Below are positions 18,408 through 52,041 of a DNA stretch of 64,000 bases, piece by piece (within the stretch, counting starts at the first letter, position 1; each line of letters opens with the position of its first letter). The notes under the pieces were generated by a model. It was not told the DNA's origin, searched no databases, and worked only from the letters and a program-made list of their open reading frames with translations. This DNA comes from a plasmid. A program made the position numbers and the translations under genes. The stretch lies in NCBI RefSeq assembly GCF_054482525.1, contig NZ_JBTHVG010000003.1, one strand, 5' to 3'.

Positions 18408-18806
18408 TGGCTGCGAACGAACTATCTCAAATGTTAGAGGTGTGCGTTCGCCTTGAGAGCCTCATGCCCTGAGGAGCTCAACTTGAGCCGATAGTATAAA
18501 CCTGGCTCCAGATGGCTTGCTGGCTGGCATAACTCCACGAGGCCGAGCCGGAACAGGACCGGAGAGCTCCTGCACGTCACATCATCAGGATTCCCCATAA
18601 ACGTACGCCGTTCTCTGGCCCGTCTGAAATTGCCAGAGATATCATAGACCGTGCCGGATGCCATCCGTCGTAACACGTAAATCTGTGCCATTGTAAGCTT
18701 CTGGGCGGAACTGCTTAAACCTGACATACCTTCCCCTCCTTATATAAAACAATCCGCCAGCAGCTCGACTGGCGGACAATGTTTGACTGGCAACAGCAAG
18801 GACATA

Positions 18807-19298
18807 CTATTTAGTGACAAGTTTGATCTTGGTTTCACTCATTCGAAGTCGAAACTCCTGAAAACCCTGCTCTACCGCTAACTCCAGCCACTCAACGGGA
18901 ATGGTATAGCTACAATCAGACCCACCCAAAGCGGCATCACAAGCGTAATCCCAGTCCTCATCCAGTTTTGGATTCATCCCCTGGGCGTAAGCCACAGTAT
19001 CGCGGGATGCGGGAGAGCCCTCAAGCTCAGCATTAGTGATCAGGTATACACCATGACTGTGCGCGAGAAGCACTTTTGGCACCAGATGTGTGCTGGCAAT
19101 TTTTGAGGATGAGGGAAAGAAAACCCTACCAGCTTTACGCGCCTCTTCTTCAGTCTGTCCCTCAGCGTTAAGGAGGGCTCCCCCCGGATAGCATGCCGGG
19201 TCATAGATCTGATCTGCGGTGACCGAAAACGTTTTTGCGGTGCGAATTTCTTCGATCAGTTTATTAATATCCGCCATTTCAAATACGAGAGTGGTCAC
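18807..19298 (-). CDS. hypothetical protein
   Basis: ORF; probable GTG start coupled to upstream gene. Confidence 0.4.
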   Translation of the reverse strand: MTTLVFEMADINKLIEEIRTAKTFSVTADQIYDPACYPGGALLNAEGQTEEEARKAGRVFFPSSSKIASTHLVPKVLLAHSHGVYLITNAELEGSPASRDTVAYAQGMNPKLDEDWDYACDAALGGSDCSYTIPVEWLELAVEQGFQEFRLRMSETKIKLVTK

Positions 19299-19302
19299 AG
19301 GC

Positions 19303-19614
19303 TTACTCTCCCTCTTCAGTGGACAACATCAGATACTTTGTTGCCAGCAGAAGCTCTCCCACATCCTTGAGGGACAATTCAGCTTTGCCTTCTACGGCAA
19401 GCTGCAAGCGCTGTCGAATTGCATGAACAGAATCTGAAGATAAAGATGCCATTTTGCGCAAAACGGCATTAGCCTTTTCTACAGCAGGATACAGAATTTC
19501 TGAGTTGGTATTATCTTCGTCATTATCAAAGATAATTTCAGAATCCATATTGATGTTATCTTCAAGCCAGCTTGAAAGCACTTCAAGTAATGACATCACC
19601 TTTTCAATTTGCAT
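19303..19614 (-). CDS. acidic hypothetical protein
   Basis: ATG at 19614 with GGAGG 7 bp upstream; the ORF-track start at 19650 is a TTG extension. Confidence 0.4.
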   Translation of the reverse strand: MQIEKVMSLLEVLSSWLEDNINMDSEIIFDNDEDNTNSEILYPAVEKANAVLRKMASLSSDSVHAIRQRLQLAVEGKAELSLKDVGELLLATKYLMLSTEEGE

Positions 19615-19660
19615 ATCGCCTCCTCTGTTAATGTGAAACAAATATAACAAAGTGGCTTAC

Positions 19661-19677
19661 CCGGCTAATAACCTGAG
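19661..19677 (-). promoter_or_regulatory. CTCAGGTTATTAGCC-type box
   Basis: Gene-orientation sequence ctcaggttattagccgg, ~50 nt 5' of ATG 19614. Confidence 0.35.
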
Positions 19678-20129
19678 CAGAAAGTTTTCGCACTTTGTTT
19701 GAAAACAACTTTTCTGCTCAGGTTAATGTTAAAGTCGCTGTGTAAAAGATAAAGGGCACTAAAGATGATTTAAGCATCAAACAGACTAAATCGGATTCCG
19801 TCTTTTATATCGCTTTTAAAATAGAATGAATGAAATATAAATTTAGCGTTTATGATTGAACGCTGTAGAGGTTGATTTATCCAGTGATATTCAGTTTGGG
19901 GCCTTAAAAAGGTTTTATTTTGGATTCGAATTACAAAGGGAGCACCGACATTTTTCTGGGGGCTCCCGCAGAGAAAAAGCGGTGAGGCTATGAAGACGAA
20001 GAGGAGGTATTCGACGAAATACTGTATGGCCACAGGAGAGCTTCAGCACCCATATCCTGCCGTCTCGCTCGCCTGTAATGATTTCAACATGTACAACGTC
20101 ATACCACGTAGTTGTATTTCTCACTTTGT

Positions 20130-20450
20130 TTATGCTTCCTGACACCGTGTGAACGCAATCTTCGTCTGGATGCGTTCATAGATGGAAAACTGCCTTTCAA
20201 TGGAACCGGCATTAGACAGTAATTCATGAAGCTCAGCAGAGTCTGTATCGGGAACGATAGCTACAGAAACTCCATATCTCCGTCCAATTTTGATTAGGTG
20301 CGCAAGCTGTTCTTTTTCGGATTCTGTGAGCATTGCCAGATCTCTTCCGGACACCTGCTCTATAAACGAACCAAGGTTTTTGGGAAAAAAGGGTTCGGCA
20401 TCAGAGTTATGTGCTGGGCGCGTCTGCGGCTTATCGAAGCTATTGGGCAT
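20130..20450 (-). CDS. hypothetical protein
   Basis: ORF; palindromic motif ~150 bp upstream. Confidence 0.35.
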   Translation of the reverse strand: MPNSFDKPQTRPAHNSDAEPFFPKNLGSFIEQVSGRDLAMLTESEKEQLAHLIKIGRRYGVSVAIVPDTDSAELHELLSNAGSIERQFSIYERIQTKIAFTRCQEA

Positions 20451-20599
20451 GAATAGAACCTATACAGTTAGAGAACTGGAGAATGGATAAAGACTCTATG
20501 AAAATCAGTTGTGCTACACTCGAATGCTAATCAAGCTTTATGATGGCTTTAGTAGGGATGGCCGTCAACTTAAACCGATAAGAAGGGAGCCATTTATCG

Positions 20600-20614
20600 T
20601 TAAAGTAACTTTCC
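20600..20614. promoter_or_regulatory. palindromic motif copy (ttaaagtaactttcc)
   Basis: Read directly; 5' of 20130-20450. Confidence 0.4.
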
Positions 20615-20629
20615 CGGATGATGCTCTTT

Positions 20630-20857
20630 TTACGAAATAAGTTTCTCACACTCCTGTATAAGAGTCGCCCTGGAACGAGATCGACTGGCTTTGCTTAATG
20701 AAGAGCGTAGTTGATGTTCATCAACCCCATCAGCGATAAACTGACCGATTTTTGTTTCAAGCCGCTGCATTGCCTCGTAAAGCTTGGCATCCGCATTATT
20801 TTTAAGAAACCTCAGTATATAATCAGCAATAATTTGGACGGGAGTGAACTTATACAT
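20630..20857 (-). CDS. hypothetical small protein
   Basis: ORF. Confidence 0.3.
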   Translation of the reverse strand: MYKFTPVQIIADYILRFLKNNADAKLYEAMQRLETKIGQFIADGVDEHQLRSSLSKASRSRSRATLIQECEKLIS

Positions 20858-30436: not shown

Positions 30437-31057
30437 TTAATCAGCCTCAAGATTCTGGAACTCAATGAGCTTTTGCTCACACTCCTCCCTGCCCCACGAT
30501 CCCTGCCAGTCACAGATGTCCCGGTACTTACTTTCCAGCTTATCCATCTGTGCGAGATTAGCTGTTGCGAAGTCTGTCCATATGTCATGCCAGCAAGCGT
30601 TGTACGTAACGCCAGCTGGTGGACAATACTCCATTGCATCAGCATTAATAATTTCAACGCGAAGATCGGTTGCAAACGAGGCTGCAACGAGGTTAATAAC
30701 ATCCTGTTCTTTTTCGATTACCGTGACATGGGTTACATCGTCTTTCTGAAGAATGGCGTGGAGCACCATACCAAGACCAAGACCATTAATGAGCACCCGC
30801 CCGGTGGCTCGCTCTATAAAATCCTGGCAGGTTCGGATCTCCATCGGGGTATTGGACATCACCACATCCCAGCCGTTGGACAAGCGGCGATATCTACCGG
30901 GCGGGATAAACTCATCTGTATTACCAGTACACTCGGCACGAAGGGCGAGGGTCAGCGCCTTATCTGTGGTAATTTCGAAAGTGTCCAGTTTCCAAGTTCC
31001 GGACTTGCCGTCTTTAACGGGTAAATCAGAAAAGCAGCTCTTCATCGAGGCAACCAA
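30437..31057 (-). CDS. class I SAM-dependent methyltransferase (substrate unknown)
   Basis: Gly-rich SAM loop 'VLINGLGLGMV' and downstream acidic motif. Confidence 0.5.
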   Translation of the reverse strand: MVASMKSCFSDLPVKDGKSGTWKLDTFEITTDKALTLALRAECTGNTDEFIPPGRYRRLSNGWDVVMSNTPMEIRTCQDFIERATGRVLINGLGLGMVLHAILQKDDVTHVTVIEKEQDVINLVAASFATDLRVEIINADAMEYCPPAGVTYNACWHDIWTDFATANLAQMDKLESKYRDICDWQGSWGREECEQKLIEFQNLEAD

Positions 31058-31200
31058 AATTCCAGTAGTTTTGTTACGCTGAACCTACCACAAACCCGCT
31101 CTTAATGAAGGCATCAGGAGCGATAGCGATCTTTGAGGCATCGTTTAAAACAGCGGCATCCTGTAACAGACACCCGATATTTTTTTTAATGCCGCAGGTG

Positions 31201-31458
31201 TTAAAGGTAGCGTTGCAAAGTTGCAACATCTTCAGGGGCAACCTCCACGCAGCTCCTGACACTGTAGTGATTTTCGCCGTTGTAGTCATAAACCCCACCG
31301 TCTTCAAAACTCAGCTGTTCAACCTCGCCAGCACACTCGGAAATCAGTGCCGTCTGGCAAGCATTTTTCTCACAATCGCTGACGAGTATACGAACATAGC
31401 TTTTCTCATGGTCGCCGTTACGGTTCTGGATCTTTACGATAAAGTGTTTTTCAGACAT
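31201..31458 (-). CDS. hypothetical small protein
   Basis: ORF. Confidence 0.3.
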   Translation of the reverse strand: MSEKHFIVKIQNRNGDHEKSYVRILVSDCEKNACQTALISECAGEVEQLSFEDGGVYDYNGENHYSVRSCVEVAPEDVATLQRYL

Positions 31459-31522
31459 TTGTGCCTCCAGCTCAGGTTGAGGTTAATTTAGCGTTGCCCC
31501 GGTTCACCGGGGCAAGAATAAA

Positions 31523-31951
31523 TCAACCCTTAATGAAATTGTGCCCCCAGGTGTTAGGCTTAAATGCCTGCTCTTTGATATATGTTTTCATTACCTTGCA
31601 GGTTTTTTTCAGGGCTTTGGTATTGGCATCGGTTACTGGGATAAAATGGCGAGAATGACGGTTTTCCCGGTACTGCTTATCAGCGTTTGGGTCAATTGCT
31701 TCGCTTTGCAGGAGCCCTTCGTGCCTGCCAATTACTATTACGTAGTTCATTTCACCTGAAACACGATCCGTGAGTAATTGAAGGGAAATATCAGCTGCTC
31801 GCGTGGCCTGGCTTGCAGATATTTTTGCATGCAAGAAAGCCCCCTTTCTGAATTTGGCCGGAGTTAGCCCTGTAATATCCTCAACACTAAAATTAAGTGA
31901 GGAAAGAATTGAAAATAAGTCGCAGCTAATGACTTCAGTATTATTAGGCAT
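31523..31951 (-). CDS. hypothetical protein
   Basis: ORF; GGTTATTAG-like box upstream. Confidence 0.35.
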   Translation of the reverse strand: MPNNTEVISCDLFSILSSLNFSVEDITGLTPAKFRKGAFLHAKISASQATRAADISLQLLTDRVSGEMNYVIVIGRHEGLLQSEAIDPNADKQYRENRHSRHFIPVTDANTKALKKTCKVMKTYIKEQAFKPNTWGHNFIKG

Positions 31952-32045
31952 TTTACCCGTCCCCGTCCATATTCATGATACGGTAATGATACCAGGTCGA
32001 TATCATTACCTAATAACTTGGTGAAAGAAAATCTGTAATTTTTAG

Positions 32046-32423
32046 TTAACTAAAATTAATAGTCTCAATACTGCTCAAGAATTCTTTTTTTACGTCCGGT
32101 GTAAAAGGTATACGTTCAATGTATTTATAAAGTGTCGCAAATGTTTTGGGTTCAATGTTTCGGGAGATAATGTCATCAATCGGATCTTCGAACATATTGA
32201 TAAAGATATCGACATGCTGCTCTCCGCTTTCTGATGCCTTTGAAAGAAGACTGACCACTTCAATGTAGCGATTATCCTGCTCTGCAATGAACAACCAGTG
32301 CCCTTCGTTAAAGGCGGGTGCAGCGCTGTAGCGTTTAACAACAATTTCTGAAAGATTATATCCTGCCTGATTCAGCAGATTATTAAAGTTGAGTTGAGTT
32401 GAAATCACGTCTAACGTTTTCAT
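32046..32423 (-). CDS. hypothetical protein
   Basis: ORF; both upstream motifs present. Confidence 0.35.
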   Translation of the reverse strand: MKTLDVISTQLNFNNLLNQAGYNLSEIVVKRYSAAPAFNEGHWLFIAEQDNRYIEVVSLLSKASESGEQHVDIFINMFEDPIDDIISRNIEPKTFATLYKYIERIPFTPDVKKEFLSSIETINFS

Positions 32424-32469
32424 AAAACCTCCTTTTCATCTGTACTTATTATACTGTTACCCAACCCCC

Positions 32470-32487
32470 AGCTAATAACCTCCCAGC
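32470..32487 (-). promoter_or_regulatory. GGTTATTAGC-type box
   Basis: ctgggaggttattagctg ~50 nt 5' of start 32423. Confidence 0.35.
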
Positions 32488-32590
32488 AAATTTTCAGAAA
32501 AAAAACACCGCCTTTTATTTAAGATTGAACACATCCTTTTTAAATACCAACAATGATTATGAAACCACAATGTAAGTGAAGCGCCATTAT

Positions 32591-32606
32591 GGAAAAGTAA
32601 CTTTTG
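32591..32606. promoter_or_regulatory. palindromic motif copy (ggaaaagtaacttttg)
   Basis: Read directly; 5' of 32046-32423. Confidence 0.4.
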
Positions 32607-32830
32607 TGCAGCTCATAAATTTTATTTATTAGTTACGTTCCTTTGTCTTGTGGTCGAAGTTCATCAGGCGAGGCCTAAGAAGAATATGTGTGGTTTCAGC
32701 CAATGCGGTGATCGGGCATTATAATTTGGTCGGGCTATTATACGTGGGTAAAGGTAGTGGTAGGGAGAGGATCAGGTTAAATTGCATTTTCCCGGTTGCC
32801 TTCCCTGGCCTACCGGTTTCAGGTCAGACG

Positions 32831-33874
32831 CTAAGACCAGCGGTAATACTTAAAGTAGTCCTCATTTACAGCCAAAAACTCCCTTAAACCGTTCATTAAT
32901 CCCTTTTCAAACGCTGTAACGATAAACCGGTATCCGTCCAGTGTTTCAATGTAGTAGATCCCGCCCGGTGTTATTCCAACATGCAACACCTCGGCTGTCA
33001 TCATAAACTGGCCTTCCGGAAAATCATGCGACAGGTATATAAAACCCGTCGTGGCCGGTGCGGGTGTGGCATTCACTAAGACACCGTTAAACTGCTGCCC
33101 GTGCCTCGCCGGTACAAGCTCACTTCCCCTGGTTGACTTATCGAGCAGCCCCTTAACATCTTTTTGCTCTTTAGATGAGGTATAGCCCCGCACATCACTC
33201 CCATCACCTGGGCGAGAGCCGGTGCCGACATGTGCAAGACGACGGTAAGCGCTGCGCATATTGATGTGGCAGGATGCCCCGGCTCTACCCTGAAGCCTTA
33301 CGCCAAAATCTTCGCAAAGTAATAAAATCTGACGTAGCTGGTGTTCATACACGGACGCAGAAAGTGAAAGGTTGAAACTGGAAAAGGTCAGTTCTAAAAC
33401 CTTTTCCCGTTTGTCATTGAAATGTGCTTCCAGCCTGATGATTGGCTTTTCCGACATTGCAAAAGCTTTGTCCGTTGCTCTGTACCGGCATTCATCTCCG
33501 AAACATTCTTCAACAACGCTGGCTATAACCGTGTCGTGATCGCCATCTTCCGGAGCTGGCACAAAGATTTCAAATTGTGCCGGTGTCTCCGGCTCCAGCA
33601 GAACGGGATATAAACGCGGAGAATTAAGCAATGCGCATTCAGAATTAATGAGCTTAACCCAGGCGCTTTTGTCGTCCGGATCCTTAAGCTGCTGTCCAAG
33701 GTTATCGCAAAAGTCTACTATCTGACGGGTATGCTCATCCGTGACTGCACAGATCAGGTTAAGACCATGCGTGGCCATACTCAATTCCCGGGTTCGGGAC
33801 TGGGAATTGATCGACCAGGGGTTAAGTGAAAGCGAAATAGGGCTTATGGAAGGGACGACCGTCTCATTCTGCAA
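32831..33874 (-). CDS. hypothetical protein
   Basis: 347-aa ORF downstream of higB-like gene; no HTH recognised. Confidence 0.4.
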   Translation of the reverse strand: MQNETVVPSISPISLSLNPWSINSQSRTRELSMATHGLNLICAVTDEHTRQIVDFCDNLGQQLKDPDDKSAWVKLINSECALLNSPRLYPVLLEPETPAQFEIFVPAPEDGDHDTVIASVVEECFGDECRYRATDKAFAMSEKPIIRLEAHFNDKREKVLELTFSSFNLSLSASVYEHQLRQILLLCEDFGVRLQGRAGASCHINMRSAYRRLAHVGTGSRPGDGSDVRGYTSSKEQKDVKGLLDKSTRGSELVPARHGQQFNGVLVNATPAPATTGFIYLSHDFPEGQFMMTAEVLHVGITPGGIYYIETLDGYRFIVTAFEKGLMNGLREFLAVNEDYFKYYRWS

Positions 33875-34020
33875 ATCTGTAAGCTGGCAGTTCGCAGTAG
33901 GCTTCGGGGAAAGGGTACTAAATATGTAACTTGCCTATTGTTTAGTACTGGCCTGGATATAAAACATCGCGTCCATGCTTGTATCCCGGGATGAAATTGA
34001 AAATAGCTTCATTTTTAACC

Positions 34021-34317
34021 TTAATGGATGAGCGATTTATAGTCATGTGCTGACAAATGGACATTATGTGCGCCATCATTCCATTCAAAGAATAATCGAT
34101 ACTTAGAGTTTACTCGAATGGAGGAATAACGGTTTGACGTCATTCTTAAGCGTTCATAACGCAAGCTGTTGGATAATAACTCCCGCTCACTCTGGACATT
34201 ATCCAGCGTTTCGAGTCGACACAGAATCGCGTTAATAATTTCAGAAGGAATACCTGCCGTTGTTTTTCCATTACGGAAGAACTTTTCAAGCCGTCTGTCT
34301 TTAAATGAATGGATCAT
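34021..34317 (-). CDS. higB: HigB-like toxin (RelE/ParE superfamily)
   Basis: 'FKDRRLEKFF...IPSEIINAILCRLETLD...SIRVNSKYRLFFEWNDG' aligns by eye to HigB toxins. Confidence 0.6.
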   Translation of the reverse strand: MIHSFKDRRLEKFFRNGKTTAGIPSEIINAILCRLETLDNVQSERELLSNSLRYERLRMTSNRYSSIRVNSKYRLFFEWNDGAHNVHLSAHDYKSLIH

Positions 34318-34366
34318 AGTTCCTCCGTAATAATTGACCTTAAAATTAAATTAAAAGGGCTTTGAA

Positions 34367-34837
34367 TTAATGAATCCCTAAAATGCGGGCGGCGACTGCC
34401 AGCTGCTTATCACTTAACTGACGCTGGTGGGTTAAAGAAGACTTAAGGCTTTCCAGAAAATTATTACTGCTGGATTGCTGGGTGATTGCATCAACCATTT
34501 TTTGATGAGATCTGCACCATGCATTGAACGCAGAGTTGTGGGCGTTTTCAGTCCTCAAACGCTCGTTTTGCAAGGATGCTGACACTTTGCGGGCAGCTTG
34601 AGCATTAATGCGGTACAGCGCATTCAGCGTGTAAGCAGTGCGGGTCGTTTCGAGGCTGTAACCCGTGGCTTTACAAGCCATACAGCGACTTCTATAAAAA
34701 TGCTTACGCTCTCCCCGACCATTGCATTTATCGCAAAGAATACGAAAAGTATATTCCGCAGTACCTTTTACAGAATCAACACAGCGGATTTTTGCGCTGG
34801 AGATTTCAATTCCACTGCGATCATAATATTTGGTCAT
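34367..34837 (-). CDS. hypothetical protein with Cys-rich zinc-ribbon-like segment
   Basis: 'CDKCNGRGE...CMACKATGY'; both upstream motif types in its leader. Confidence 0.4.
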   Translation of the reverse strand: MTKYYDRSGIEISSAKIRCVDSVKGTAEYTFRILCDKCNGRGERKHFYRSRCMACKATGYSLETTRTAYTLNALYRINAQAARKVSASLQNERLRTENAHNSAFNAWCRSHQKMVDAITQQSSSNNFLESLKSSLTHQRQLSDKQLAVAARILGIH

Positions 34838-34888
34838 AATGTGATTCCTCCGGTTAGTTCTGGAGTAATCATGACAGAATGAATCTAC

Positions 34889-34905
34889 TGGCTAATAACC
34901 TGAGA
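34889..34905 (-). promoter_or_regulatory. CTCAGGTTATTAGCC-type box
   Basis: ctcaggttattagccag ~55 nt 5' of start 34837. Confidence 0.35.
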
Positions 34906-35271
34906 GTAAATATTTTAAAAAAACATTGAGAGAGGGTCTGCAAATTTATACACGAAGGATTCAAATATAATTTTGTTTAAAAAATTAAGAGCATTCTGAA
35001 GTAAAAGTGCATCAAAAAGCATTCATGGATAAATCATGTACTGGTGCCAGCCATTTAAACGCGGGCATTGTTCCGGAGTGATTAAACGGTTTAGCATCAT
35101 AGATTAAAACCAAAAGGAAGGCGTCCTTCCCGTCTCGGGAATATTACTTTCCCGTTTGCAATTTAAGAGCCACTTAATGAGAAAGTAATAATTAAGTCAT
35201 GCTCAACTCTACATATTACATTGAGGATGGCGTAACAGGGTACGGCATACTACCGCACCCTTCTGAAGAGC

Positions 35272-37662
35272 TTATGTTTGAGGGAATTCTATAGCAAATG
35301 TGGCCGTGCCAGATTGACCACTTACAGCGGGAGTAACGGGATACGTGCGCTCTTCACCATTACCAAGATCCAGTGACAGCGATTTAGTTTCACCAGGCTG
35401 GACCGTAACTCCGGCAACCGTAACGCCGAACTGGGCATTTTTCTGAACAGTCAGGGTTCCGTTTAACTGTCCGGTAATGATAGAACCGTCCTGACGCCGC
35501 AACACACTGGTTCGGATGATGGCCAGCGGCGTGTTGTCCGTTGCTTTCAGTGCTACGGCTGTGGCCAGCGTCTTGAGATTATCCAGCATAATCAGATTCG
35601 CAGGCTGGTAGGTAAAATTAAGCGTTTTAGTGGTCCGGTTACCTGATTCGTCAATAGCCAGTGCCTCCAGATGATACATCTGTCCCGATTCGTCAGTGTT
35701 GGGGAAGATTCTGGGGTATTCCGGAATAAAGACATCCTTGGATAACGGCGTGAATGCCAGGGTGACCTTTTCAGAGTTAGGTCCACCAGCGAGCTGAAGC
35801 GATGTCAGGGAAGCATCCCCAGAGGCATCAGTAACGCTTATGCGAAGGTTCTCAAGCCCTTTAACCAGTTTTCCTTCTGCGTCTGCGCCATTAAAACTGA
35901 ACGCGATAACCGGAAGCGTTGAGTCAATTTTCAGCGGTGCATTAAGCGTTTTGGTTCCGGTGTTTCCAACAAGATCCGTGGCAGAGACGCTAACCACCGT
36001 ATAATCCCCGTCCGGTAGACCAGCGTATGAGAAGGTGGCGTTTTTGGTTTTATAATCGCTTTCACTGACGGTCACAGGCTTCAGCGTGAAAGGTTCCCCC
36101 CGGGCATTTTTAAGGGTGGCTTCGAAAACTTTGGTATCCCAGTAGCTGATGTTCCAGGCGTTGACGCGATCATTATCGGTGGCCGTCATAGTGATTGTCT
36201 TGGAGGCCTTGTTTACCTGAGCGACATTAACCACCGGTGGGTTGTTATCCCAGATAACCGTAAAATTACCAGCAAGCGCATCGAATATGCTGTCACCATC
36301 TTTTCCCGAGTAAAGGTGCAGATACTCAAATCCTTTGTCACTGGTGTAGTTGAAGTTAACCGTCATCTCGCATGAACTTTGTCCGATAGGTATAGTGCAG
36401 AACCAGGCTGCATTTTTTACCGTTCTGAACTTTTGCACGTATGGTCGGGGTTCAGCGGTTACCTTTATGCGGCTAATGGTGGCGGTTTTAACGCTGATTG
36501 AGGCCTGAGTTAACCACTCACTGGTATCACTCCGGTACATCTCTTTAGCCACTATCTTCGGGGCTATTTCCATCGCCGGGGCTGGAGTGAAGTTGAGGGA
36601 GTTATGATGAATTCGTCTTACTCCTCCTGCCAGAGTCTGGAATTCATGATAAGTATCCCCCACATTGGGATATATGTATTTGAAAGTATAAATATTATAA
36701 GTGCTATCGGACGTCTGGAAATTCGAGTCCGCCCAGCCATATTTGGAACCGTTAACAGCAGTAAAGTCACTTTTTTTCCTTAATACCCGTACGGAAATAG
36801 GGTTCTGGAAGACGGTCATGCCAGACTGATAAGTGACCCATGATCCGGTAGTGGCGTCCTGCACCTGGATGATATCGTCAGGCTTAACCCGATCAATTAC
36901 GCTTCGGCGGCTTAGTTCGATCCTGTTTCCCGCTTTGTCATAAAGGTAGATCCCCACTTTATATTCAGAGCGGTTTTCCGGTGCCAGGGCATTGCTGCTT
37001 GCGTCGGCGACTTGAACGGTTACGCTACCTTCCACTGTATTAATTTCCGCTGGCTTTTTACGCTCCACTCCAGCGGCATCGGTTATGAAATATTCAGCAT
37101 TAGCAAGCCCGGAACCTTTATCACTCAGTCCATTAAAGACCAGTGCCTGGACGCTGGCGTACTGCATACCGGCTGGTACTGAAGTGAAGATCGCTTCGCT
37201 GCCAAAGTTCCACCCGTTTCTCGTATAACTTATGGTACCCGTTGCCGGAGGCGTTCGGTCAATTGCAAGCGGGTAATCCTGCCGGGAGACCTCCTTCCCT
37301 TGCAAGTCGGTAATCACCTCTCTGAGGGTGAAGCTATCTTCTCCCATCGCTGGTACGGTCAGAGTCTTGCCGTAATAATCAAAGCCTGTCGAAGATGTGG
37401 TACGGTCATCTACGGTAACCAGGCTGCTTTTCGTGCTCCAGATGAGGCTCCCGTCACTTTTCAGCAGACTGAGCGTAATATAACGGTCCAGACCGGAAAT
37501 AACGGCAACGTCAAAGCTCGTTACCGGATTAATCCATACGGATGCAGGCGATACGGTCTTTTTAACGTTCAGGGTATCTTTAAAGCTGAATTCTGCGATT
37601 TCAGCGGAAGCTCCTGCGCTGAAACCTGCAAATGCAATAAGCAGGGCTAGTTTGATTTTCAT
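35272..37662 (-). CDS. large secreted protein, paralog A
   Basis: Signal peptide 'MKIKLALLIAFAGFSAGASA'; probable start 37662 with AGGAG RBS (ORF-track start 37689); ~800 aa sharing N-terminal 'FKDT..ISGLDR', 'LENLRI' and 'PEYPRIFPN' blocks with paralogs B and C. Confidence 0.6.
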   Translation of the reverse strand: MKIKLALLIAFAGFSAGASAEIAEFSFKDTLNVKKTVSPASVWINPVTSFDVAVISGLDRYITLSLLKSDGSLIWSTKSSLVTVDDRTTSSTGFDYYGKTLTVPAMGEDSFTLREVITDLQGKEVSRQDYPLAIDRTPPATGTISYTRNGWNFGSEAIFTSVPAGMQYASVQALVFNGLSDKGSGLANAEYFITDAAGVERKKPAEINTVEGSVTVQVADASSNALAPENRSEYKVGIYLYDKAGNRIELSRRSVIDRVKPDDIIQVQDATTGSWVTYQSGMTVFQNPISVRVLRKKSDFTAVNGSKYGWADSNFQTSDSTYNIYTFKYIYPNVGDTYHEFQTLAGGVRRIHHNSLNFTPAPAMEIAPKIVAKEMYRSDTSEWLTQASISVKTATISRIKVTAEPRPYVQKFRTVKNAAWFCTIPIGQSSCEMTVNFNYTSDKGFEYLHLYSGKDGDSIFDALAGNFTVIWDNNPPVVNVAQVNKASKTITMTATDNDRVNAWNISYWDTKVFEATLKNARGEPFTLKPVTVSESDYKTKNATFSYAGLPDGDYTVVSVSATDLVGNTGTKTLNAPLKIDSTLPVIAFSFNGADAEGKLVKGLENLRISVTDASGDASLTSLQLAGGPNSEKVTLAFTPLSKDVFIPEYPRIFPNTDESGQMYHLEALAIDESGNRTTKTLNFTYQPANLIMLDNLKTLATAVALKATDNTPLAIIRTSVLRRQDGSIITGQLNGTLTVQKNAQFGVTVAGVTVQPGETKSLSLDLGNGEERTYPVTPAVSGQSGTATFAIEFPQT

Positions 37663-38157
37663 GGGTTGTCTCCTGATCAGGTTCCCCATGATACTTTTTC
37701 AGTGTTCGAGATCTTTTCGGGAAAATAGCTAATTTTAATGTTTTTCTTTTCTGCCCGGCGGGACCTGTTTTGTTCCATTTTTATCAGTGAATGTAATGAG
37801 ACCGATTCGTCCACTGTTAACAGTGTAAAAGCGAGGTTGAAAGCCAGCTTTGAGAAGGTTTTCAATAGCTGAAAAAAAATCTTTTTTGAGCATTGGTTTC
37901 AAGATGGTTTTCCTTTTATGCCCGGTGCCGCCGGGACGGTGGCATTAAATATACGCCATGTAAGTAAATTAATTTTTACCCATTTGATTGTCAATACAAA
38001 CAAAAAATAAACCATGTTTATTATTTTACCAGCGATGCTATTTTAAAGTCCGTCTAAAATAAAAAACCAAAAAGTTAAATTTGAAGCCATCCTTCCTAAA
38101 TTCATTTCTTGCGCATATTAGCCCCTGCTTTAAGTATATAATTTTTGAAAAAGTTGT

Positions 38158-41282: not shown

Positions 41283-43703
41283 ATGAAACATCTCGCTTTT
41301 ATTACTGCTGTAGCCGGACTCGGTATGTCTGTTCAGGCCCCAGCTCAGATATATGAATCGGCCTTTAAGGACACGAACGGTATTGAGATCCACGCCCCGT
41401 CTTCTCGTCTTATGCTTAATCCGGCATCACCGGTAACTTTGACACTTATTTCAGGTCTTGATCGTTTCGTTAATGTCAAAGTCACGAAAGACACTGGAAC
41501 TGTCATTCTTAATACTACGACTACACGGACGGGTGTATCAGACCGACTAACAGCTGCTGACGGTAGTGAGTTCTACGGCAAAAAAGTAACTTTGCCTGCT
41601 TTGGGTGAAGGCAAATTTGTCGTTCAGATAAACGTGTTAGATCTCAATCAGAAGCCTGTAGCGACCTATAACTATAACTGGCTAATTGATGTCACCCCTC
41701 CAGCGGCAAATGCTCTTACCGCTAATACTGGTTCTGGCTCTACCGCTGGTGACGTGTGGAAGCTTGGATTAGAGGCAACGGGGCAGTATGACTTCACCTC
41801 TTCGGGCGTAAGTGATGCAAATGGTATTGATAAGGGCCTAATATATATTTACAGGCAGGACGGTAGCCTCTACAGCACTACACAGATGCAGTATGACGTA
41901 TCCGGCCAAAAGATGTACCACACTTACTCTAAGAATTCAGTTAAGGGAACCGGAATACCAGACAGCAACCTGGATGAAGACTTTACTGCAAAAGTTGTTA
42001 TCTTCGATAACGCAGGTAATAGCCGAACGCTGCCAACTCAAAAATTTCGCTACGACAACACGCTGGGTGAGATGACACTGTGGGCCGTTCATGATCCAAA
42101 TACGTCTTCCAGCGTCGTACCCGGGGTTTCTAATTATCCGGCTTACAAAGCCGGTATGGTCGTTAACGAAAACCCTATTCGATTAGTCTACCGGATCCCA
42201 AAATCTAACTACCGTGCTTATTCAGAAGGTGGGCTTCAGTTCATCAATCAATATTCCGCCCCCAAAGAGATAGCTGTAGACAGCACTTATGCTTATGTTG
42301 AAATGACTCTTCCCTATGGCTCAATTAATGGGGATATGGCTCGTATGGCGAACTTTGGCCAGTGGGGAGGGTATTATCCGTCATACAGCCTCGTTCTAAA
42401 CCCATCTGCAAACCAAACGCCTGCATTTGCGGGTACCTGGGTAGATTTCCTCGATGATAAGGGGAACTGGGTTAAGTGGAAGGATTTTGAGAGTGTGGCT
42501 TCATCACGACTGCCAATTAAAATTTCCCGACTTCGTTTTAACGTTGAAGCCCGGCCCTTTGCACAGGAGATCGGCGGTAAGGCGACCTGCACCATTCCGG
42601 CAGGAAAAACCTCGTGTGAAGCGCCTGAGACGTTTGATATGGCCTTGGGTACCCAGGGCTACAATAGAATCCTTTACTTCGTTCGCAGCATCAGCAATCC
42701 CATTTTGCGGTCTGAGCAATGGATTATGACACGCTGGAACAATAAACAACTGCCGGTAATAAACTCGATATCATATGACGAGACTAACAAGCAGCTGGAT
42801 GTACTGGCGTCACTTGAAGGCGATGGTAACTGGTTCGACTCGGTCTCATTGAGGGAATTTTATCTTTCCGATAAGAACACCGGTACCCGGATGTCACCAA
42901 CAGGCGTAATCAAATCTCGTATCTCAGGTAACTACACGATTGCTTATGATTTATCCCGTCAGTCTGAAGGAAAATACAACGTTGAGGTCAACATCAGGGA
43001 CTTCTTCCAGAACCAGACCAATAAAACTTTCGGAGAAATTGCTCTGGATAACACTCCTCCGACAGTGGCCATAACATTCGACGGAAAGCCGGTAAAAGAC
43101 GATACGGTAGTGTACGGCCTGGAGAACCTCAGGATCGCTCTGGCAGATAATCTGACAACCCCGAGGATAACCCGTCTTCAGCTCGTAGGTGGCCCCACAG
43201 CTGATAACGTTGAGCTTACGTGGTCACCGGCAGGCAAAGATACATACATGCCTGAGTATCCGAGGCTGTTCCCAAATTTCGAACCATCTGAAAATTATTC
43301 AATTAGCGTAACAGTTGCCGATAGTCAGTCGAATACCAAAACCTATACTCAGAAGTTCAGTTATCTACCGAATAACCTTGTGCAGTTACATAATCTACGC
43401 ACATTGTCGGTCAGTTCACCTCTCAAAACGACAGATGGCGTACCACTTGCGTACCTGTCCACTAACGTTCTGCGTAAGACAAATGGAGAAATTGCTAAAG
43501 GGGTCCAGAACGCAACGCTGACTGTGCGGAAGGATGCAGCCTTCGGTATTAAATTTAATGGGGCACAGGCGGCTCCAGGCGAGTCAGTTGAGGTGCAAAT
43601 AGATATGGGCCAGGGGGATAATCTTCTGTTACCCGTTTATCCTTCCGAAAATGGGAAAGTTGGCACCTCAGAATTCATGATTCAGATCGACGAGTTGAAG
43701 TAA
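41283..43703 (+). CDS. large secreted protein, paralog B
   Basis: Signal peptide, 806 aa, conserved blocks shared with paralogs A and C; ATG with AGGGGA RBS. Confidence 0.6.
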   Translation: MKHLAFITAVAGLGMSVQAPAQIYESAFKDTNGIEIHAPSSRLMLNPASPVTLTLISGLDRFVNVKVTKDTGTVILNTTTTRTGVSDRLTAADGSEFYGKKVTLPALGEGKFVVQINVLDLNQKPVATYNYNWLIDVTPPAANALTANTGSGSTAGDVWKLGLEATGQYDFTSSGVSDANGIDKGLIYIYRQDGSLYSTTQMQYDVSGQKMYHTYSKNSVKGTGIPDSNLDEDFTAKVVIFDNAGNSRTLPTQKFRYDNTLGEMTLWAVHDPNTSSSVVPGVSNYPAYKAGMVVNENPIRLVYRIPKSNYRAYSEGGLQFINQYSAPKEIAVDSTYAYVEMTLPYGSINGDMARMANFGQWGGYYPSYSLVLNPSANQTPAFAGTWVDFLDDKGNWVKWKDFESVASSRLPIKISRLRFNVEARPFAQEIGGKATCTIPAGKTSCEAPETFDMALGTQGYNRILYFVRSISNPILRSEQWIMTRWNNKQLPVINSISYDETNKQLDVLASLEGDGNWFDSVSLREFYLSDKNTGTRMSPTGVIKSRISGNYTIAYDLSRQSEGKYNVEVNIRDFFQNQTNKTFGEIALDNTPPTVAITFDGKPVKDDTVVYGLENLRIALADNLTTPRITRLQLVGGPTADNVELTWSPAGKDTYMPEYPRLFPNFEPSENYSISVTVADSQSNTKTYTQKFSYLPNNLVQLHNLRTLSVSSPLKTTDGVPLAYLSTNVLRKTNGEIAKGVQNATLTVRKDAAFGIKFNGAQAAPGESVEVQIDMGQGDNLLLPVYPSENGKVGTSEFMIQIDELK

Positions 43704-49584: not shown

Positions 49585-52041
49585 TTATTTTAATTCTTCA
49601 ATGTTAATCATGAACTCAGATCTGCCAGTAAGGCCGGATACAGCAGGGAAAATAGGAAAGCTACGGCTGTCCCCGAGCCCCAAATCCAGTTGAAGCTCTT
49701 TGCTTTCACCTGGCATCGCAGAAACGCCATTTACAGTCACGCCGAATGCAGCGTCCTTACGGACAGTAAGCACTGCGTCCTGAAGCCCTGTAGCGATTGA
49801 ACCATCCTTTTTACGCAGCTGGCTGGCATACAGAACAGCCAGAGCAGTATTGTCAGATGTTTTGAGAGAAGCATTGACAGCTAAGGTTTTCAGATTCTCT
49901 AGCCTGACGAGATTGTTTGGAAGGTAGTTAAATTCGACTGAGCTTTCTTTAACGTTGTTCATCTCATCTTTGGCCTGAACTGTGAGAGTGTATGTTTCGC
50001 CTTCATTAAGAGACGGAAAGATCTTGGGATAATTAGGTGCATACAGGTTGTTTCCCAGATTCACCCAAGACAATTCCACCGCATCAGAAACAGGGCCACC
50101 GCGAAGAGTCATACGGCTTAAGGATGGTTTAGTTAGAGCATCGGTGAGCTGTATACGGACGTTCTCCAGCCCATATACTGTTACGTTTTTGCTGATCGGT
50201 TTTCCTTCGTAGCTAATACTTACAGATGGTGCTGTATTATCAACGACAACTGTTTGATAAGGGAGGTTACCGGTATTGTTGAATGTATCTTGGGCATTAA
50301 TCACCACGTTATAACTGCCTTCTGGTACCTCTTTCATGTTGAACTCATACGTGTAGTTCCCAGACGCCATATTTCTACCTGTTTGTTTGCCGGTTACGCT
50401 TATTTCTGCGTTGTTACGGTTTTTATCTGACAACCAAACTCGATTTACATAAACATGGTCGAAATATGAACCATCTCCAGGTTGATTCACGTAAACCTGG
50501 AGAATGTTGGTGGTTTCATTGTAATCAAATCCAGTGACGGAGGGACCCAGTGTATGCCAGGCTATATTCTCCCATATAGGGGCAAAGAAGGTTGCTTCGG
50601 TGGTTGACCTTACTTCATAGCCACTATGAAGATAACCGGTAGTGCCATTTATAATATCCTGGGGCAAAGAGACGGTACAGGTTGTTGAGCCAGCTGGAAT
50701 ACTGCATGTTGCTCCGCCAGTGATTTTTTGATCATATGGCCTGGCCTGTACATTGAATCGGATATTAGTAAGTTTTATAGGCATATCAGATGCCTTGAAC
50801 AGGTTCCAGTTTACGCTGTTGAACCATGTTCCATCAGCCTTTTGTCGTTCTATGGGTGAACTTCCCCAAGCCGGACTCTTTACAGAGGCAGGATCCCAGT
50901 TGAGCCAGCTGGCATACTGACCAAGATCTCCTCCAGACCATTGATATGTATTCACAGGTCTATAGTAGTTTCCATCTAAGGCACCCTGTGGCAGCTTAAC
51001 TTCCACGTAGACATAGGTGGCATCTTCGGAAAGGACCTGTACTCCGCCATAGTTATTGGTAATGCTCATGCCACCATTTCGATATGGCTTCCAGTTAGTT
51101 CTTGGGATACGTATAACCAACTTGTAGGGGTTTTCCAGCACTGTAAGGCCTCGTTTAAACGGGACGTATCCCGAAGAAATGCCGGGTACAACACTGGTGC
51201 TTACACGTGAGTCATGAACTGCAAATGGCGTAAATTCTCCCATTTGATCGTCATATAAAAACCGCTGGGGAGGAATGTTAAGCGTATTTCCTGCCAGGTC
51301 CGTAACGATGAAATTGAAGGTGAATTCTTCATCAAGATCACTTGAGGGCATGCCAGCCTGGGTGTTCATATCTTTAATCCACGGATAGACCGCACGTTTA
51401 TTGGCTGTGTCATAACTCAGGTTATTGTCGGAGACCACAGAACCATTACTTCGTTTAATGACAAGACGGATCTTGTCAATTCCACTAGCATCCTCAATAC
51501 CGTCTGCAAATATAGAAAACTGGCCACTACCGCCTCGGCCCAACTCCCAAAGTGGCCCAGAAAGTACCATGTCGTAACCTGCGTTTTGACTCGGATAAAT
51601 ACTCTTATAGCGTGGAGGAGTTGTATCAACGATGAAATGATAAGTAGATGTGCTCACTACAGTCTGGCGAATATCCAGAGTTTCATTGACTACAGTAAAG
51701 GTCCCTTCTCCGAGCGCCGGTAGAACCATATCCTTTCCATAGTATTCTGTTCCATCGGCAGCAACGATACGATCTGCAACGCTCGTTTTGGTCGAGACGG
51801 AGGAATACATAACCTTTTTATCGCTGTCTCGTGTGACCGTCACTCGCTCGTACCGATCAAGACCCGATATCAAGTTCAGAGTCAAAACACCAGCGGGATT
51901 AAGATATGTTTGTGTTGCAGGTTTGATATTCCGAACAGCCTTATTGGTATCTGTAAATGAGTAGCTAAATACCTGAGCATGTGCCGAAGATACAGTAGCA
52001 AGGGCAGTTGCAACCATGCAGCCAATTAGAGTTTTACGCAT
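49585..52041 (-). CDS. large secreted protein, paralog C
   Basis: Signal peptide 'MRKTLIGCMVATALATVSSAHA', 818 aa, blocks shared with A and B; ATG with GGAG RBS; two palindromic motif copies 150-235 bp upstream. Confidence 0.6.
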   Translation of the reverse strand: MRKTLIGCMVATALATVSSAHAQVFSYSFTDTNKAVRNIKPATQTYLNPAGVLTLNLISGLDRYERVTVTRDSDKKVMYSSVSTKTSVADRIVAADGTEYYGKDMVLPALGEGTFTVVNETLDIRQTVVSTSTYHFIVDTTPPRYKSIYPSQNAGYDMVLSGPLWELGRGGSGQFSIFADGIEDASGIDKIRLVIKRSNGSVVSDNNLSYDTANKRAVYPWIKDMNTQAGMPSSDLDEEFTFNFIVTDLAGNTLNIPPQRFLYDDQMGEFTPFAVHDSRVSTSVVPGISSGYVPFKRGLTVLENPYKLVIRIPRTNWKPYRNGGMSITNNYGGVQVLSEDATYVYVEVKLPQGALDGNYYRPVNTYQWSGGDLGQYASWLNWDPASVKSPAWGSSPIERQKADGTWFNSVNWNLFKASDMPIKLTNIRFNVQARPYDQKITGGATCSIPAGSTTCTVSLPQDIINGTTGYLHSGYEVRSTTEATFFAPIWENIAWHTLGPSVTGFDYNETTNILQVYVNQPGDGSYFDHVYVNRVWLSDKNRNNAEISVTGKQTGRNMASGNYTYEFNMKEVPEGSYNVVINAQDTFNNTGNLPYQTVVVDNTAPSVSISYEGKPISKNVTVYGLENVRIQLTDALTKPSLSRMTLRGGPVSDAVELSWVNLGNNLYAPNYPKIFPSLNEGETYTLTVQAKDEMNNVKESSVEFNYLPNNLVRLENLKTLAVNASLKTSDNTALAVLYASQLRKKDGSIATGLQDAVLTVRKDAAFGVTVNGVSAMPGESKELQLDLGLGDSRSFPIFPAVSGLTGRSEFMINIEELK

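What the first reader, a model, noticed from the sequence alone, without database searches (positions are those of the whole stretch)
34021..34317. HigB-like toxin gene without a recognisable cognate antitoxin
The 98-aa product has a clear HigB/RelE-family signature, but the 146 bp downstream are non-coding and the next gene is a 347-aa protein with no HTH I can see. The upstream neighbour is a Cys-rich 156-aa protein. Either the toxin is a decayed orphan or it pairs with a non-canonical antitoxin, possibly the upstream zinc-ribbon protein.
Basis: partly seen in the sequence, partly recalled or inferred. Interest (0 to 1): 0.5.

Follow-up and report, generated by a model that had tools for sequence, protein, structure and literature searches.

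The report
HigB toxin gene, partner gene broken
The HigB-like toxin gene is real and intact, but the "non-coding" DNA after it is the start of its conserved 393-codon neighbour, cut short here by a single stop-codon mutation, so this is a non-standard three-gene plasmid cassette rather than a lone decayed toxin.

Summary
The window is IncHI2 plasmid backbone. The 98-aa gene at 34021..34317 (- strand) is a genuine HigB-like (PF05015) gene, identical in about 1000 plasmids and under strong purifying selection.

The 146 bp "non-coding" stretch is not intergenic. In R478, R27, a Pantoea plasmid and five more distant relatives, a 391-396-aa gene starts 8-15 nt after the higB stop. In this window the same ATG (34012) is followed at codon 26 by TAG instead of CAG. 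That is one C>T change, and it is the only difference from plasmid pHXY0908 over 5,061 bp. The TAG allele is in 294 of 1023 IncHI2 plasmids and the intact allele in 727.

The zinc-finger gene, higB and the 393-aa gene stay together as a unit while their flanks change.

No HTH or HigA-type antitoxin exists in either neighbour or anywhere on a complete plasmid of this lineage. The 393-aa protein has no Pfam, NCBIfam or structural relatives, and its "flavin reductase" label is unsupported.

Best reading: a non-canonical toxin-partner cassette whose downstream partner is truncated here. Which neighbour neutralises HigB, or whether it needs neutralising at all, is unresolved. Moderate interest.

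The parts
34367..34837 (-). First gene of the cassette: a 156-aa Cys-rich protein with one DnaJ-type zinc centre (CDKCNGRG ... CMACKATG) and a helical C-terminal half. Candidate regulator, co-factor or alternative antitoxin.
   Evidence: ORF. Pfam DnaJ_CXXCXGXG E=1e-3. PHROG 4046 (unknown function) E=3.9e-12. The four Cys are conserved in 13 homologues (three invariant, one in at least 90%). Syntenic with higB in all 9 loci examined. dN/dS 0.09-0.28.
34318..34366 (-). 49-nt spacer between the Cys-rich gene and higB. It carries a GGAGG Shine-Dalgarno sequence 6 nt before the higB ATG.
   Evidence: Read directly from the sequence. The spacer is 29-63 nt in relatives.
34021..34317 (-). higB-like gene: 98 aa, RelE/ParE-superfamily fold, intact.
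   Evidence: PF05015 E=6.2e-18. Matches P. vulgaris HigB structures. dN/dS 0.04-0.12. 100% identical protein in about 996 plasmids.
32831..34012 (-). Partner gene: 393 codons plus the stop codon in the intact allele. It starts 8 nt after the higB stop (TAAGGTTAAAAATG). In this window it is interrupted by an amber codon at codon 26.
   Evidence: Alignments with IncHI1, Pantoea and IncHI2 pHXY0908. Intact 393-aa CDS annotated in pHXY0908 and R27. AF2 model pLDDT 80.7. No Pfam, NCBIfam or PDB relatives. dN/dS 0.11-0.32.
33935..33937 (-). Premature TAG (codon 26 of the partner gene). It is CAG in 727 IncHI2 plasmids including R478, and TAG in 294.
   Evidence: It is the only difference from pHXY0908 in 5,061 bp.
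33776..33778 (-). In-frame ATG (codon 79), a possible restart site giving a 315-aa N-terminally truncated product. RefSeq uses this start for its 'flavin reductase' CDS.
   Evidence: RefSeq CDS in pTB-nb4. Upstream anti-SD duplex is -4.3 kcal/mol, against -3.9 for the native start.
33872..33874 (-). TTG (codon 47). It has no Shine-Dalgarno sequence.
   Evidence: duplex +1.2 kcal/mol.
35115..35131 (-). Terminator-like hairpin after the upstream Ig-like gene. It suggests that the three-gene unit has its own promoter somewhere in 34838..35114.
   Evidence: Consensus scan only. No sigma-70-like hit on the minus strand, so the promoter is inferred and not located.

Best explanation
This is a conserved three-gene cassette of the IncHI plasmid backbone. 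Its gene order is a DnaJ-type zinc-finger protein (156 aa), a HigB-like RelE-fold protein (98 aa), and a 393-aa protein of unknown fold.

Shown:
- higB is intact and under strong constraint.
- The downstream gene normally starts 8-15 nt after the higB stop.
- In this window that gene carries one nonsense mutation (CAG>TAG, codon 26). That mutation makes the toxin look orphaned.
- The TAG allele is derived and is present in about 29% of sequenced IncHI2 plasmids.
- No canonical HigA exists on the plasmid.

Inferred:
- The HigB-like protein is a ribosome-dependent mRNA endonuclease, as are characterised PF05015 members.
- It is held in check by direct binding of the closely spaced downstream protein. 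This follows the toxin-first arrangement seen in canonical higBA relatives, but with a swapped, non-HTH partner.
- The zinc-finger protein serves as a regulator or helper.
- In this window, the partner is either made as a 315-aa product restarting at Met79, which would still neutralise HigB, or the cassette is expressed too weakly for the loss to matter.

The confidence given (0.45) is for the inferred mechanism. The anatomical points listed under 'Shown' are near-certain.
For: Partner gene anatomy:
- Alignments show the ATG 8 nt after the higB stop and a single in-frame TAG.
- The intact allele is found in R478, R27, the Pantoea plasmid pPSP-a3e and five other loci.

Allele counts:
- 294 plasmids carry TAG and 727 carry CAG, out of 1023.

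Cassette unity:
- The same three genes are adjacent in all 9 loci. This holds down to 30% partner identity and while the flanks differ.

Selection:
- All three genes are under purifying selection. higB is the most constrained.

Toxin-first logic:
- Relatives at 36-38% identity have a HigA-family gene in the same downstream position.
- The Klebsiella clade at 42-44% identity has yet another partner with no recognisable domain in that position.

No antitoxin in trans:
- No HigA was found anywhere on a complete plasmid of this lineage.
Against: - No direct evidence that the 393-aa protein binds or neutralises HigB. The AF2 run on a HigB-linker-partner fusion was of low confidence (pLDDT 56, pTM 0.48).
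- The nonsense allele spread to 294 plasmids in at least three genera. It did so with no other change in higB, the zinc-finger gene or the promoter region. That is hard to square with an essential full-length antitoxin.
- The partner is far larger than usual antitoxins and has no DNA-binding domain.
- Stand-alone relatives of its C-terminal domain are never next to a recognisable toxin.
- Deleting the whole cassette from R27 (Del4) did not reduce plasmid stability (PMC4853401).
- The residue matching the catalytic His54 of P. vulgaris HigB is Glu here.
Confidence: 0.45

Rival explanations
1. The upstream zinc-finger protein is the real antitoxin or repressor, in the antitoxin-first order common in RelE/ParE systems. 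The 393-aa protein would then be an accessory sensor or effector whose loss is harmless.
For: - The Cys-rich gene is always first in the unit, 29-63 nt before higB, and has the same narrow distribution.
- The amber allele of the downstream gene is tolerated with no compensating change.
- The zinc-finger and helical architecture could bind DNA or protein.
Against: - No HTH, RHH, AbrB or known antitoxin domain is detected.
- PF05015 toxins are toxin-first, and relatives carry their antitoxin downstream (PMC11980606, Table 1).
- The Klebsiella clade has no such upstream gene but keeps a closely spaced downstream partner.
Confidence: 0.2
2. The HigB-like protein is not a free-standing poison in this cassette. 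It would be a RelE-fold component of a three-protein plasmid function, such as establishment, defence or anti-defence. It would be silent or harmless unless triggered, so no dedicated antitoxin is needed.
For: - Truncation of the partner is tolerated in 294 plasmids.
- R27 lacking the cassette is as stable as wild type (PMC4853401).
- The cassette sits in a 35-kb one-direction array of small unknown genes. That array includes orphan DNA methyltransferases, a PAPS-reductase-family protein, an HNH endonuclease and hok.
- Stand-alone relatives of the partner's C-terminal domain lie in similar arrays next to PAPS-reductase proteins.
- TA genes and orphan methyltransferases are enriched in plasmid leading regions (PMC11541004).
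- The cassette is AT-richer (39-41% GC) than its surroundings.
Against: - Strong conservation of the active-site-bearing half of HigB.
- The motif pattern is the same as in HigA-paired relatives (Glu at the His54 position, H-D-Y-K/R at the C-terminus), which argues for a working RNase.
- No PADLOC match for any of the proteins.
- The cassette is about 40 kb from mobI and the relaxase gene, so its place in the leading region is not established.
Confidence: 0.25
3. This is a decaying orphan toxin, a remnant of a higBA pair that lost higA.
For: No HigA is present. The downstream ORF is interrupted in this window.
Against: - higB dN/dS is 0.04-0.12 and the protein is identical in about 996 plasmids.
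- There is no trace of higA sequence downstream. The DNA there is homologous to the 393-aa gene in all relatives.
- The nonsense mutation is a single recent SNP in the partner gene, not in higB.
Confidence: 0.03
4. HigB is neutralised in trans by a canonical HigA encoded elsewhere, on the plasmid or in the host chromosome.
For: Several papers list a 'HigB-HigA system' on IncHI2 plasmids from automated annotation (PMC6978640, PMC8092524).
Against: - No HigA-family CDS is annotated on the complete plasmid pTB-nb4, and tblastn with two HigA queries gave no hit at E<=0.1.
- The plasmids live in many genera, so a chromosomal partner would not be dependable.
Confidence: 0.03

Closest known systems
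higBA of plasmid Rts1 (Proteus vulgaris HigB, Pfam PF05015) and HigA-paired plasmid relatives such as pMCR_BE2-5
   Same: - Same toxin family, by profile match and 30-38% identity.
- Same toxin-first order, with the next gene starting a few nt after the toxin stop.
- Plasmid-borne.
   Different: - The downstream gene is not a ~100-aa HTH HigA. It is a 393-aa protein with no detectable domain or structural relative.
- An extra conserved zinc-finger gene lies upstream.
- P. vulgaris His54 and His92 correspond to Glu55 and Lys94 here. The HigA-paired relatives share that pattern.
Tripartite toxin-antitoxin systems: TAC higB-higA-secB, and (from my own knowledge) paaR-paaA-parE, pasABC and omega-epsilon-zeta
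   Same: Three co-oriented, co-inherited genes around a RelE/ParE-superfamily toxin. The third component could be a regulator or chaperone (PMC11980606 describes the TAC modules).
   Different: - No SecB-like chaperone and no HTH or RHH regulator is detectable.
- The gene order (zinc finger, toxin, large protein) matches none of these systems.
- No component apart from the toxin is homologous.
Partner-swapped type II TA pairs (the combinatorial TA network of Ernits et al. 2023, PMC10440598)
   Same: A known toxin fold combined with an unrelated neighbour in the antitoxin position. Sister clades of the same toxin carry different partners.
   Different: Neutralisation is untested here. The candidate partner is 4-5 times larger than typical antitoxins, and its truncation is tolerated in nature.
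HigB-like gene plus ~105-aa unknown partner on Klebsiella IncHI1B/IncFIB-type megaplasmids (e.g. pKP-14-2-131-NDM-1)
   Same: Nearest outgroup of this HigB clade (42-48% identity, depending on the alignment). Toxin-first, with the partner 6-11 nt downstream and no Pfam domain.
   Different: - The partner is unrelated in sequence and size.
- There is no upstream zinc-finger gene.
- The toxin's C-terminus lacks the D-Y-K motif.

Membership tests
HigB-like toxin family (Pfam PF05015, RelE/ParE superfamily) | Significant match to the family profile over most of its length | tested here: met
   E=6.2e-18, model positions 2-88 of 91. PHROG 3066 E=8.9e-18. phmmer to P. vulgaris HigB chains E=7.5e-6.
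HigB-like toxin family (Pfam PF05015, RelE/ParE superfamily) | Catalytic residues of P. vulgaris HigB (His54, Asp90, Tyr91, His92; PMC5027501) | tested here: inconclusive
   The HMMER alignment gives Glu55, Asp92, Tyr93, Lys94. MAFFT instead aligns His91 with His92. HigA-paired plasmid relatives share the Glu and the H-D/K-Y-R ending, so the pattern is normal for this subgroup. Most of these positions are invariant across the IncHI clade; Glu55 and Asp92 are each replaced in one of the two most distant members.
HigB-like toxin family (Pfam PF05015, RelE/ParE superfamily) | Ribosome-dependent mRNA cleavage and growth inhibition | not testable with these tools
   Needs expression and cleavage assays.
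Canonical higBA type II toxin-antitoxin module | HigA-family HTH (XRE-type) antitoxin gene directly downstream of the toxin | tested here: not met
   The downstream gene has no Pfam or NCBIfam hit. tblastn with two HigA proteins found nothing in the window or in the whole plasmid.
Canonical higBA type II toxin-antitoxin module | Toxin-first bicistron with closely spaced start of the second gene | tested here: met
   Spacing of 8-15 nt in 8 loci. The Shine-Dalgarno-like AAGG overlaps the higB stop.
Canonical higBA type II toxin-antitoxin module | Contribution to plasmid maintenance (post-segregational killing) | tested here: inconclusive
   Published R27 Del4 (60,355-67,055) removes the cassette (64,810-66,827) with no loss of stability (PMC4853401). 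R27 has redundant stability systems, so this does not exclude a minor role.
Toxin-antitoxin-chaperone (TAC) tripartite modules | SecB-like chaperone gene as third component | tested here: not met
   Neither neighbour matches SecB. The upstream protein only resembles the DnaJ zinc-finger motif.
Flavin reductase (the RefSeq product name of the downstream gene) | Match to a flavin-reductase / FMN-binding split-barrel profile or structure | tested here: not met
DnaJ-type CXXCXGXG zinc-finger domain (upstream protein) | Paired CxxCxGxG motifs forming a zinc centre | tested here: inconclusive
   Motifs CDKCNGRG and CMACKATG are present. The four Cys are conserved in 13 homologues (three invariant, one in at least 90%). 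The profile match is weak (E=1e-3; PDB profile E=0.11), and only one zinc centre is present.

The most novel reading that the evidence does not exclude
IncHI plasmids carry a previously undescribed tripartite toxin module. In it, a HigB-like ribosome-dependent RNase is controlled by a fold-orphan 393-aa multi-domain protein together with a DnaJ-type zinc-finger protein, and not by an HTH antitoxin. The module may act in plasmid establishment or in conflict between mobile elements. The widespread natural amber allele would then be a ready-made partial loss-of-function variant.
Probability: 0.35. Interest if true: 0.55.

Novelty: new variant of a known kind. Interest (0 to 1): 0.4.

Why it matters
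IncHI2 and IncHI1 plasmids are major carriers of mcr-1, mcr-9, ESBL and carbapenemase genes. Papers routinely list a "HigBA system" on them from automated annotation (PMC6978640, PMC8092524).

This work shows that no HigA is present. The conserved unit is three genes, two of them of unknown function and fold. The RefSeq name "flavin reductase" has no support.

About 29% of sequenced IncHI2 plasmids carry a one-base nonsense allele of the putative partner. The rest of the 5-kb locus is identical where compared. That is a natural isogenic pair for testing what the partner does and whether this HigB is toxic.

If the 393-aa protein does neutralise HigB, it would add a new and unusually large antitoxin type to the RelE/ParE partner repertoire. 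If it does not, the case is a useful caution against reading "toxin" from a Pfam hit alone.

Tried and rejected
- **Complex prediction.** AF2 on a HigB-(G4S)6-partner fusion with 8 paired sequences gave pLDDT 56 and pTM 0.48. The HigB part scored 31-50, so the run was uninformative.
- **Profile and sequence searches for the partner.** Pfam, NCBIfam, PHROGs, PADLOC and PDB sequences all gave nothing.
- **Rfam on 31.5-35.5 kb,** looking for an RNA antitoxin: no match.
- **Paralogues of higB or the partner in the window:** none.
- **HigA in trans:** none.
- **Broad catalytic-residue statistics.** The word-indexed search returned only the narrow IncHI clade. I compared with four plasmid relatives instead.
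- **Literature.** A search on R27 ORF numbers R0063-65 returned irrelevant MRI papers. The IncHI comparative-genomics preprint does not mention toxins. The R27 Ig-like-protein paper does not mention these ORFs.
- **Decayed pseudogene reading:** rejected on dN/dS.
- **Metagenome or genome-collection scan for the partner family:** considered but not run. The exhaustive representative search showed the family is tiny, with 24 representatives that are mostly fragments.

Full report
**Where this is**

The 2.5 kb around the finding is 100% identical to about 250 large E. coli plasmids. In PLSDB the HigB protein is 100% identical in roughly a thousand IncHI2-type plasmids of Escherichia, Salmonella, Enterobacter, Klebsiella and others. 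The window also carries repHI2 and three Ig-like-protein genes typical of IncHI backbones. All genes discussed here lie on the minus strand.

**The observation**

The ORF at 34021..34317 (-) encodes 98 aa. It matches Pfam HigB-like_toxin PF05015 at E=6.2e-18, PHROG 3066 'toxin of TA system', and the solved Proteus vulgaris HigB at E=7.5e-6. The upstream 156-aa Cys-rich ORF and the downstream 347-aa ORF exist as described. Neither has an HTH or any antitoxin domain. So the gene call and the absence of a canonical antitoxin hold up.

**The 'non-coding 146 bp' is the start of the next gene**

- I aligned the region with the IncHI1 plasmid pYUYZMPE54 and the Pantoea plasmid pPSP-a3e. Both have a 393-codon ORF whose ATG lies 8 nt after the higB stop (TAAGGTAAAAAATG).
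- The window has the same ATG at 34012..34010. The single interruption is TAG at codon 26 (33937..33935), where the others have CAG.
- The IncHI2 plasmid pHXY0908 has CAG and an annotated 393-aa CDS.
- Over 5,061 bp, the window differs from pHXY0908 at this one base only. That stretch covers the end of the Ig-like gene, the promoter region, all three cassette genes and the two genes after them.
- A 61-bp probe centred on the site matches 294 PLSDB plasmids exactly in the TAG form. It matches 727 in the CAG form, including the prototype R478. The amber allele is therefore derived and sits in about 29% of sequenced IncHI2 plasmids, in at least three genera.
- RefSeq annotates the remainder from Met79 as a 315-aa 'flavin reductase'. 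That ATG has a weak Shine-Dalgarno-like element, about as good as the native one.

**A three-gene cassette**

The partner family is tiny. There are 17 clusters in the 5.8-billion-protein index, and 24 representatives, mostly fragments, in an exhaustive HMMER scan of 1.84 billion proteins. The zinc-finger and HigB clades are equally narrow.

In every locus I could read, the order is zinc-finger gene, then higB, then partner. These loci were IncHI2, IncHI1 (including R27), the Pantoea plasmid and five metagenomic or genomic contigs, with partner identity down to 30%. The spacers are 29-63 nt and 8-15 nt.

The flanks differ between loci. In IncHI2 an Ig-like gene lies upstream. In L012 it lies downstream. 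In IncHI1 and L013 the upstream genes are divergent. L011 and L013 lack the 127- and 140-aa genes that follow the cassette in IncHI2. So the three genes travel as a unit.

All three are under purifying selection. dN/dS is 0.04-0.12 for higB, 0.09-0.28 for the zinc-finger gene and 0.11-0.32 for the partner. The toxin is therefore not decaying.

**What the neighbours are**

The 393-aa protein gives a confident AF2 model (pLDDT 80.7, pTM 0.69). The model shows four strand-strand-helix modules and a C-terminal five-stranded domain followed by two helices. Searches with it gave the following:
- Foldseek against AFDB50 and BFVD finds only its own family and a few small uncharacterised proteins.
- No Pfam, NCBIfam, PADLOC or PHROG family matches. 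The 'flavin reductase' name is unsupported.

Its C-terminal ~100 residues occur as stand-alone 115-140-aa proteins. These sit in one-direction arrays of small unknown ORFs, twice beside large PAPS-reductase proteins, and never beside a recognisable toxin.

The zinc-finger protein has conserved CxxCxGxG-type motifs and a helical tail, but no detectable DNA-binding domain.

**Is there a hidden canonical antitoxin?**

No. Rfam finds nothing in the region. tblastn with two HigA proteins finds nothing in the window or in the complete 254-kb amber-lineage plasmid pTB-nb4. That plasmid's annotation lists only hipA with an HTH gene, and hok. Reports of 'HigB-HigA' on IncHI2 plasmids appear to rest on automated labels.

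**Catalytic residues**

P. vulgaris HigB needs His54, Asp90, Tyr91 and His92 (PMC5027501). The HMMER alignment puts Glu55, Asp92, Tyr93 and Lys94 at those positions. The alignment of the C-terminus is ambiguous, because His91 could instead pair with His92. Plasmid relatives that do have a HigA partner show the same Glu and an H-D/K-Y-R ending. The pattern is therefore normal for this subgroup and does not show inactivation. The C-terminal half is almost invariant across the clade.

**Which neighbour, if either, is the antitoxin?**

*For the downstream gene.* PF05015 modules are toxin-first (PMC11980606). Relatives at 36-38% identity have HigA in exactly that position. The next clade out (42-44% identity, Klebsiella megaplasmids) has a different domain-less ~105-aa gene there and no upstream zinc-finger gene. 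The 8-15-nt spacing is conserved.

*Against the downstream gene.* The amber allele is tolerated with no compensating change. The protein is large and has no DNA-binding domain. Relatives of its C-terminal domain are not linked to toxins.

*What I could not settle.* I could not test binding. An AF2 run on a linker fusion with eight paired sequences was of low confidence throughout. Published work shows that R27 lacking 60,355-67,055 (Del4) is as stable as wild type (PMC4853401). That deletion contains the cassette at 64,810-66,827. The cassette is therefore not a major maintenance determinant under those conditions.

**Context**

The cassette lies in a ~35-kb run of co-oriented, mostly unknown small genes. 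The run includes two orphan DNA methyltransferases, a PAPS-reductase-family protein, an HNH endonuclease, DUF957 and DUF3085 proteins, and hok. It lies between repHI2 and the traD/mobH/mobI block. Such content resembles the establishment and anti-defence regions described for other plasmids (PMC11541004). However, the cassette is about 40 kb from mobI, so I do not claim that it lies in the leading region. The cassette is somewhat AT-richer (39-41% GC) than its neighbours.

**Verdict**

The finding is real but misdescribed. higB is intact. Its apparent orphan state in this window comes from a single nonsense mutation in a conserved, closely spaced downstream gene, and the true unit is a three-gene cassette with no canonical antitoxin.

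I rate the anatomical conclusions near-certain. My estimates for the functional readings are:

| Reading | Confidence |
|---|---|
| The downstream protein is the neutralising partner | about 0.45 |
| The zinc-finger protein is the neutralising partner | about 0.2 |
| HigB needs no dedicated antitoxin here | about 0.25 |

This is a new variant of a known kind and of moderate interest. It comes with an unusually clean natural allele pair for experiments.

Noticed in passing
window 35272..37689 (-), 41283..43703 (+), 49585..52041 (-): Three paralogous ~800-aa Ig-like proteins (DUF4165, Big_3_2, Big_3_3 domains), only 28-29% identical to each other. They flank repHI2. One of them is the usual upstream neighbour of the cassette in IncHI2, but lies downstream of it in L012. 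Ig-like proteins of IncHI plasmids are known to matter for conjugation (PMC6764697).
   Followed up: partly
window 32831..33778 (-); RefSeq WP_164846946.1 and relatives: The product name 'flavin reductase' has spread through RefSeq and UniProt for this family. It has no support from any profile, sequence or fold search run here.
   Followed up: yes
window ~18800..37700 (-); L014 13.5-48.3 kb: A ~35-kb run of co-oriented, mostly unknown small genes. It includes two orphan DNA methyltransferases (one at 29018..30268), a 794-aa PAPS-reductase-family protein (23450..25834), an HNH endonuclease, DUF957 and DUF3085 proteins, and hok. It looks like an establishment or anti-defence island, but its position relative to oriT was not worked out.
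   Followed up: partly
L004 2001..2642; L017 1501..2141: Klebsiella IncHI1B/IncFIB-type megaplasmids (several hundred records) carry a HigB-like gene 42-44% identical to this one. It is followed 6-11 nt later by a ~105-aa protein with no Pfam or NCBIfam match. This is a second non-canonical HigB-partner pair. The toxin there ends in AHAHA and lacks the D-Y motif.
   Followed up: partly
L008 3718..4411; L024 762..4184; L028 1..3366: Stand-alone relatives (121-140 aa) of the partner's C-terminal domain occur in unrelated contigs, in arrays of small one-direction ORFs. Two of these are beside large PAPS-reductase-domain proteins. One overlaps by 8 nt a small CxxC...CxxxC protein upstream. This may be a mobile-element domain of unknown role.
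   Followed up: partly
L023 (R27) 24811..26828 = record 64810..66827: R27 carries the intact cassette. It falls wholly inside deletion Del4 of Tassinari et al. 2016, which had no stability phenotype. Del18 (168.6-175.0 kb), the only deletion that could not be obtained, is elsewhere on the plasmid.
   Followed up: yes
hit H1 (NZ_JBTHVI010000002.1): In one mink E. coli plasmid the match to this 2.5-kb region is split into two pieces with an IS91-family transposase annotated between them. The cassette region has been hit by an insertion there.
   Followed up: no
window 35115..35141: Overlapping terminator-like hairpins on both strands lie between the Ig-like gene and the cassette. This may be a bidirectional terminator that separates the transcription units.
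   Followed up: no
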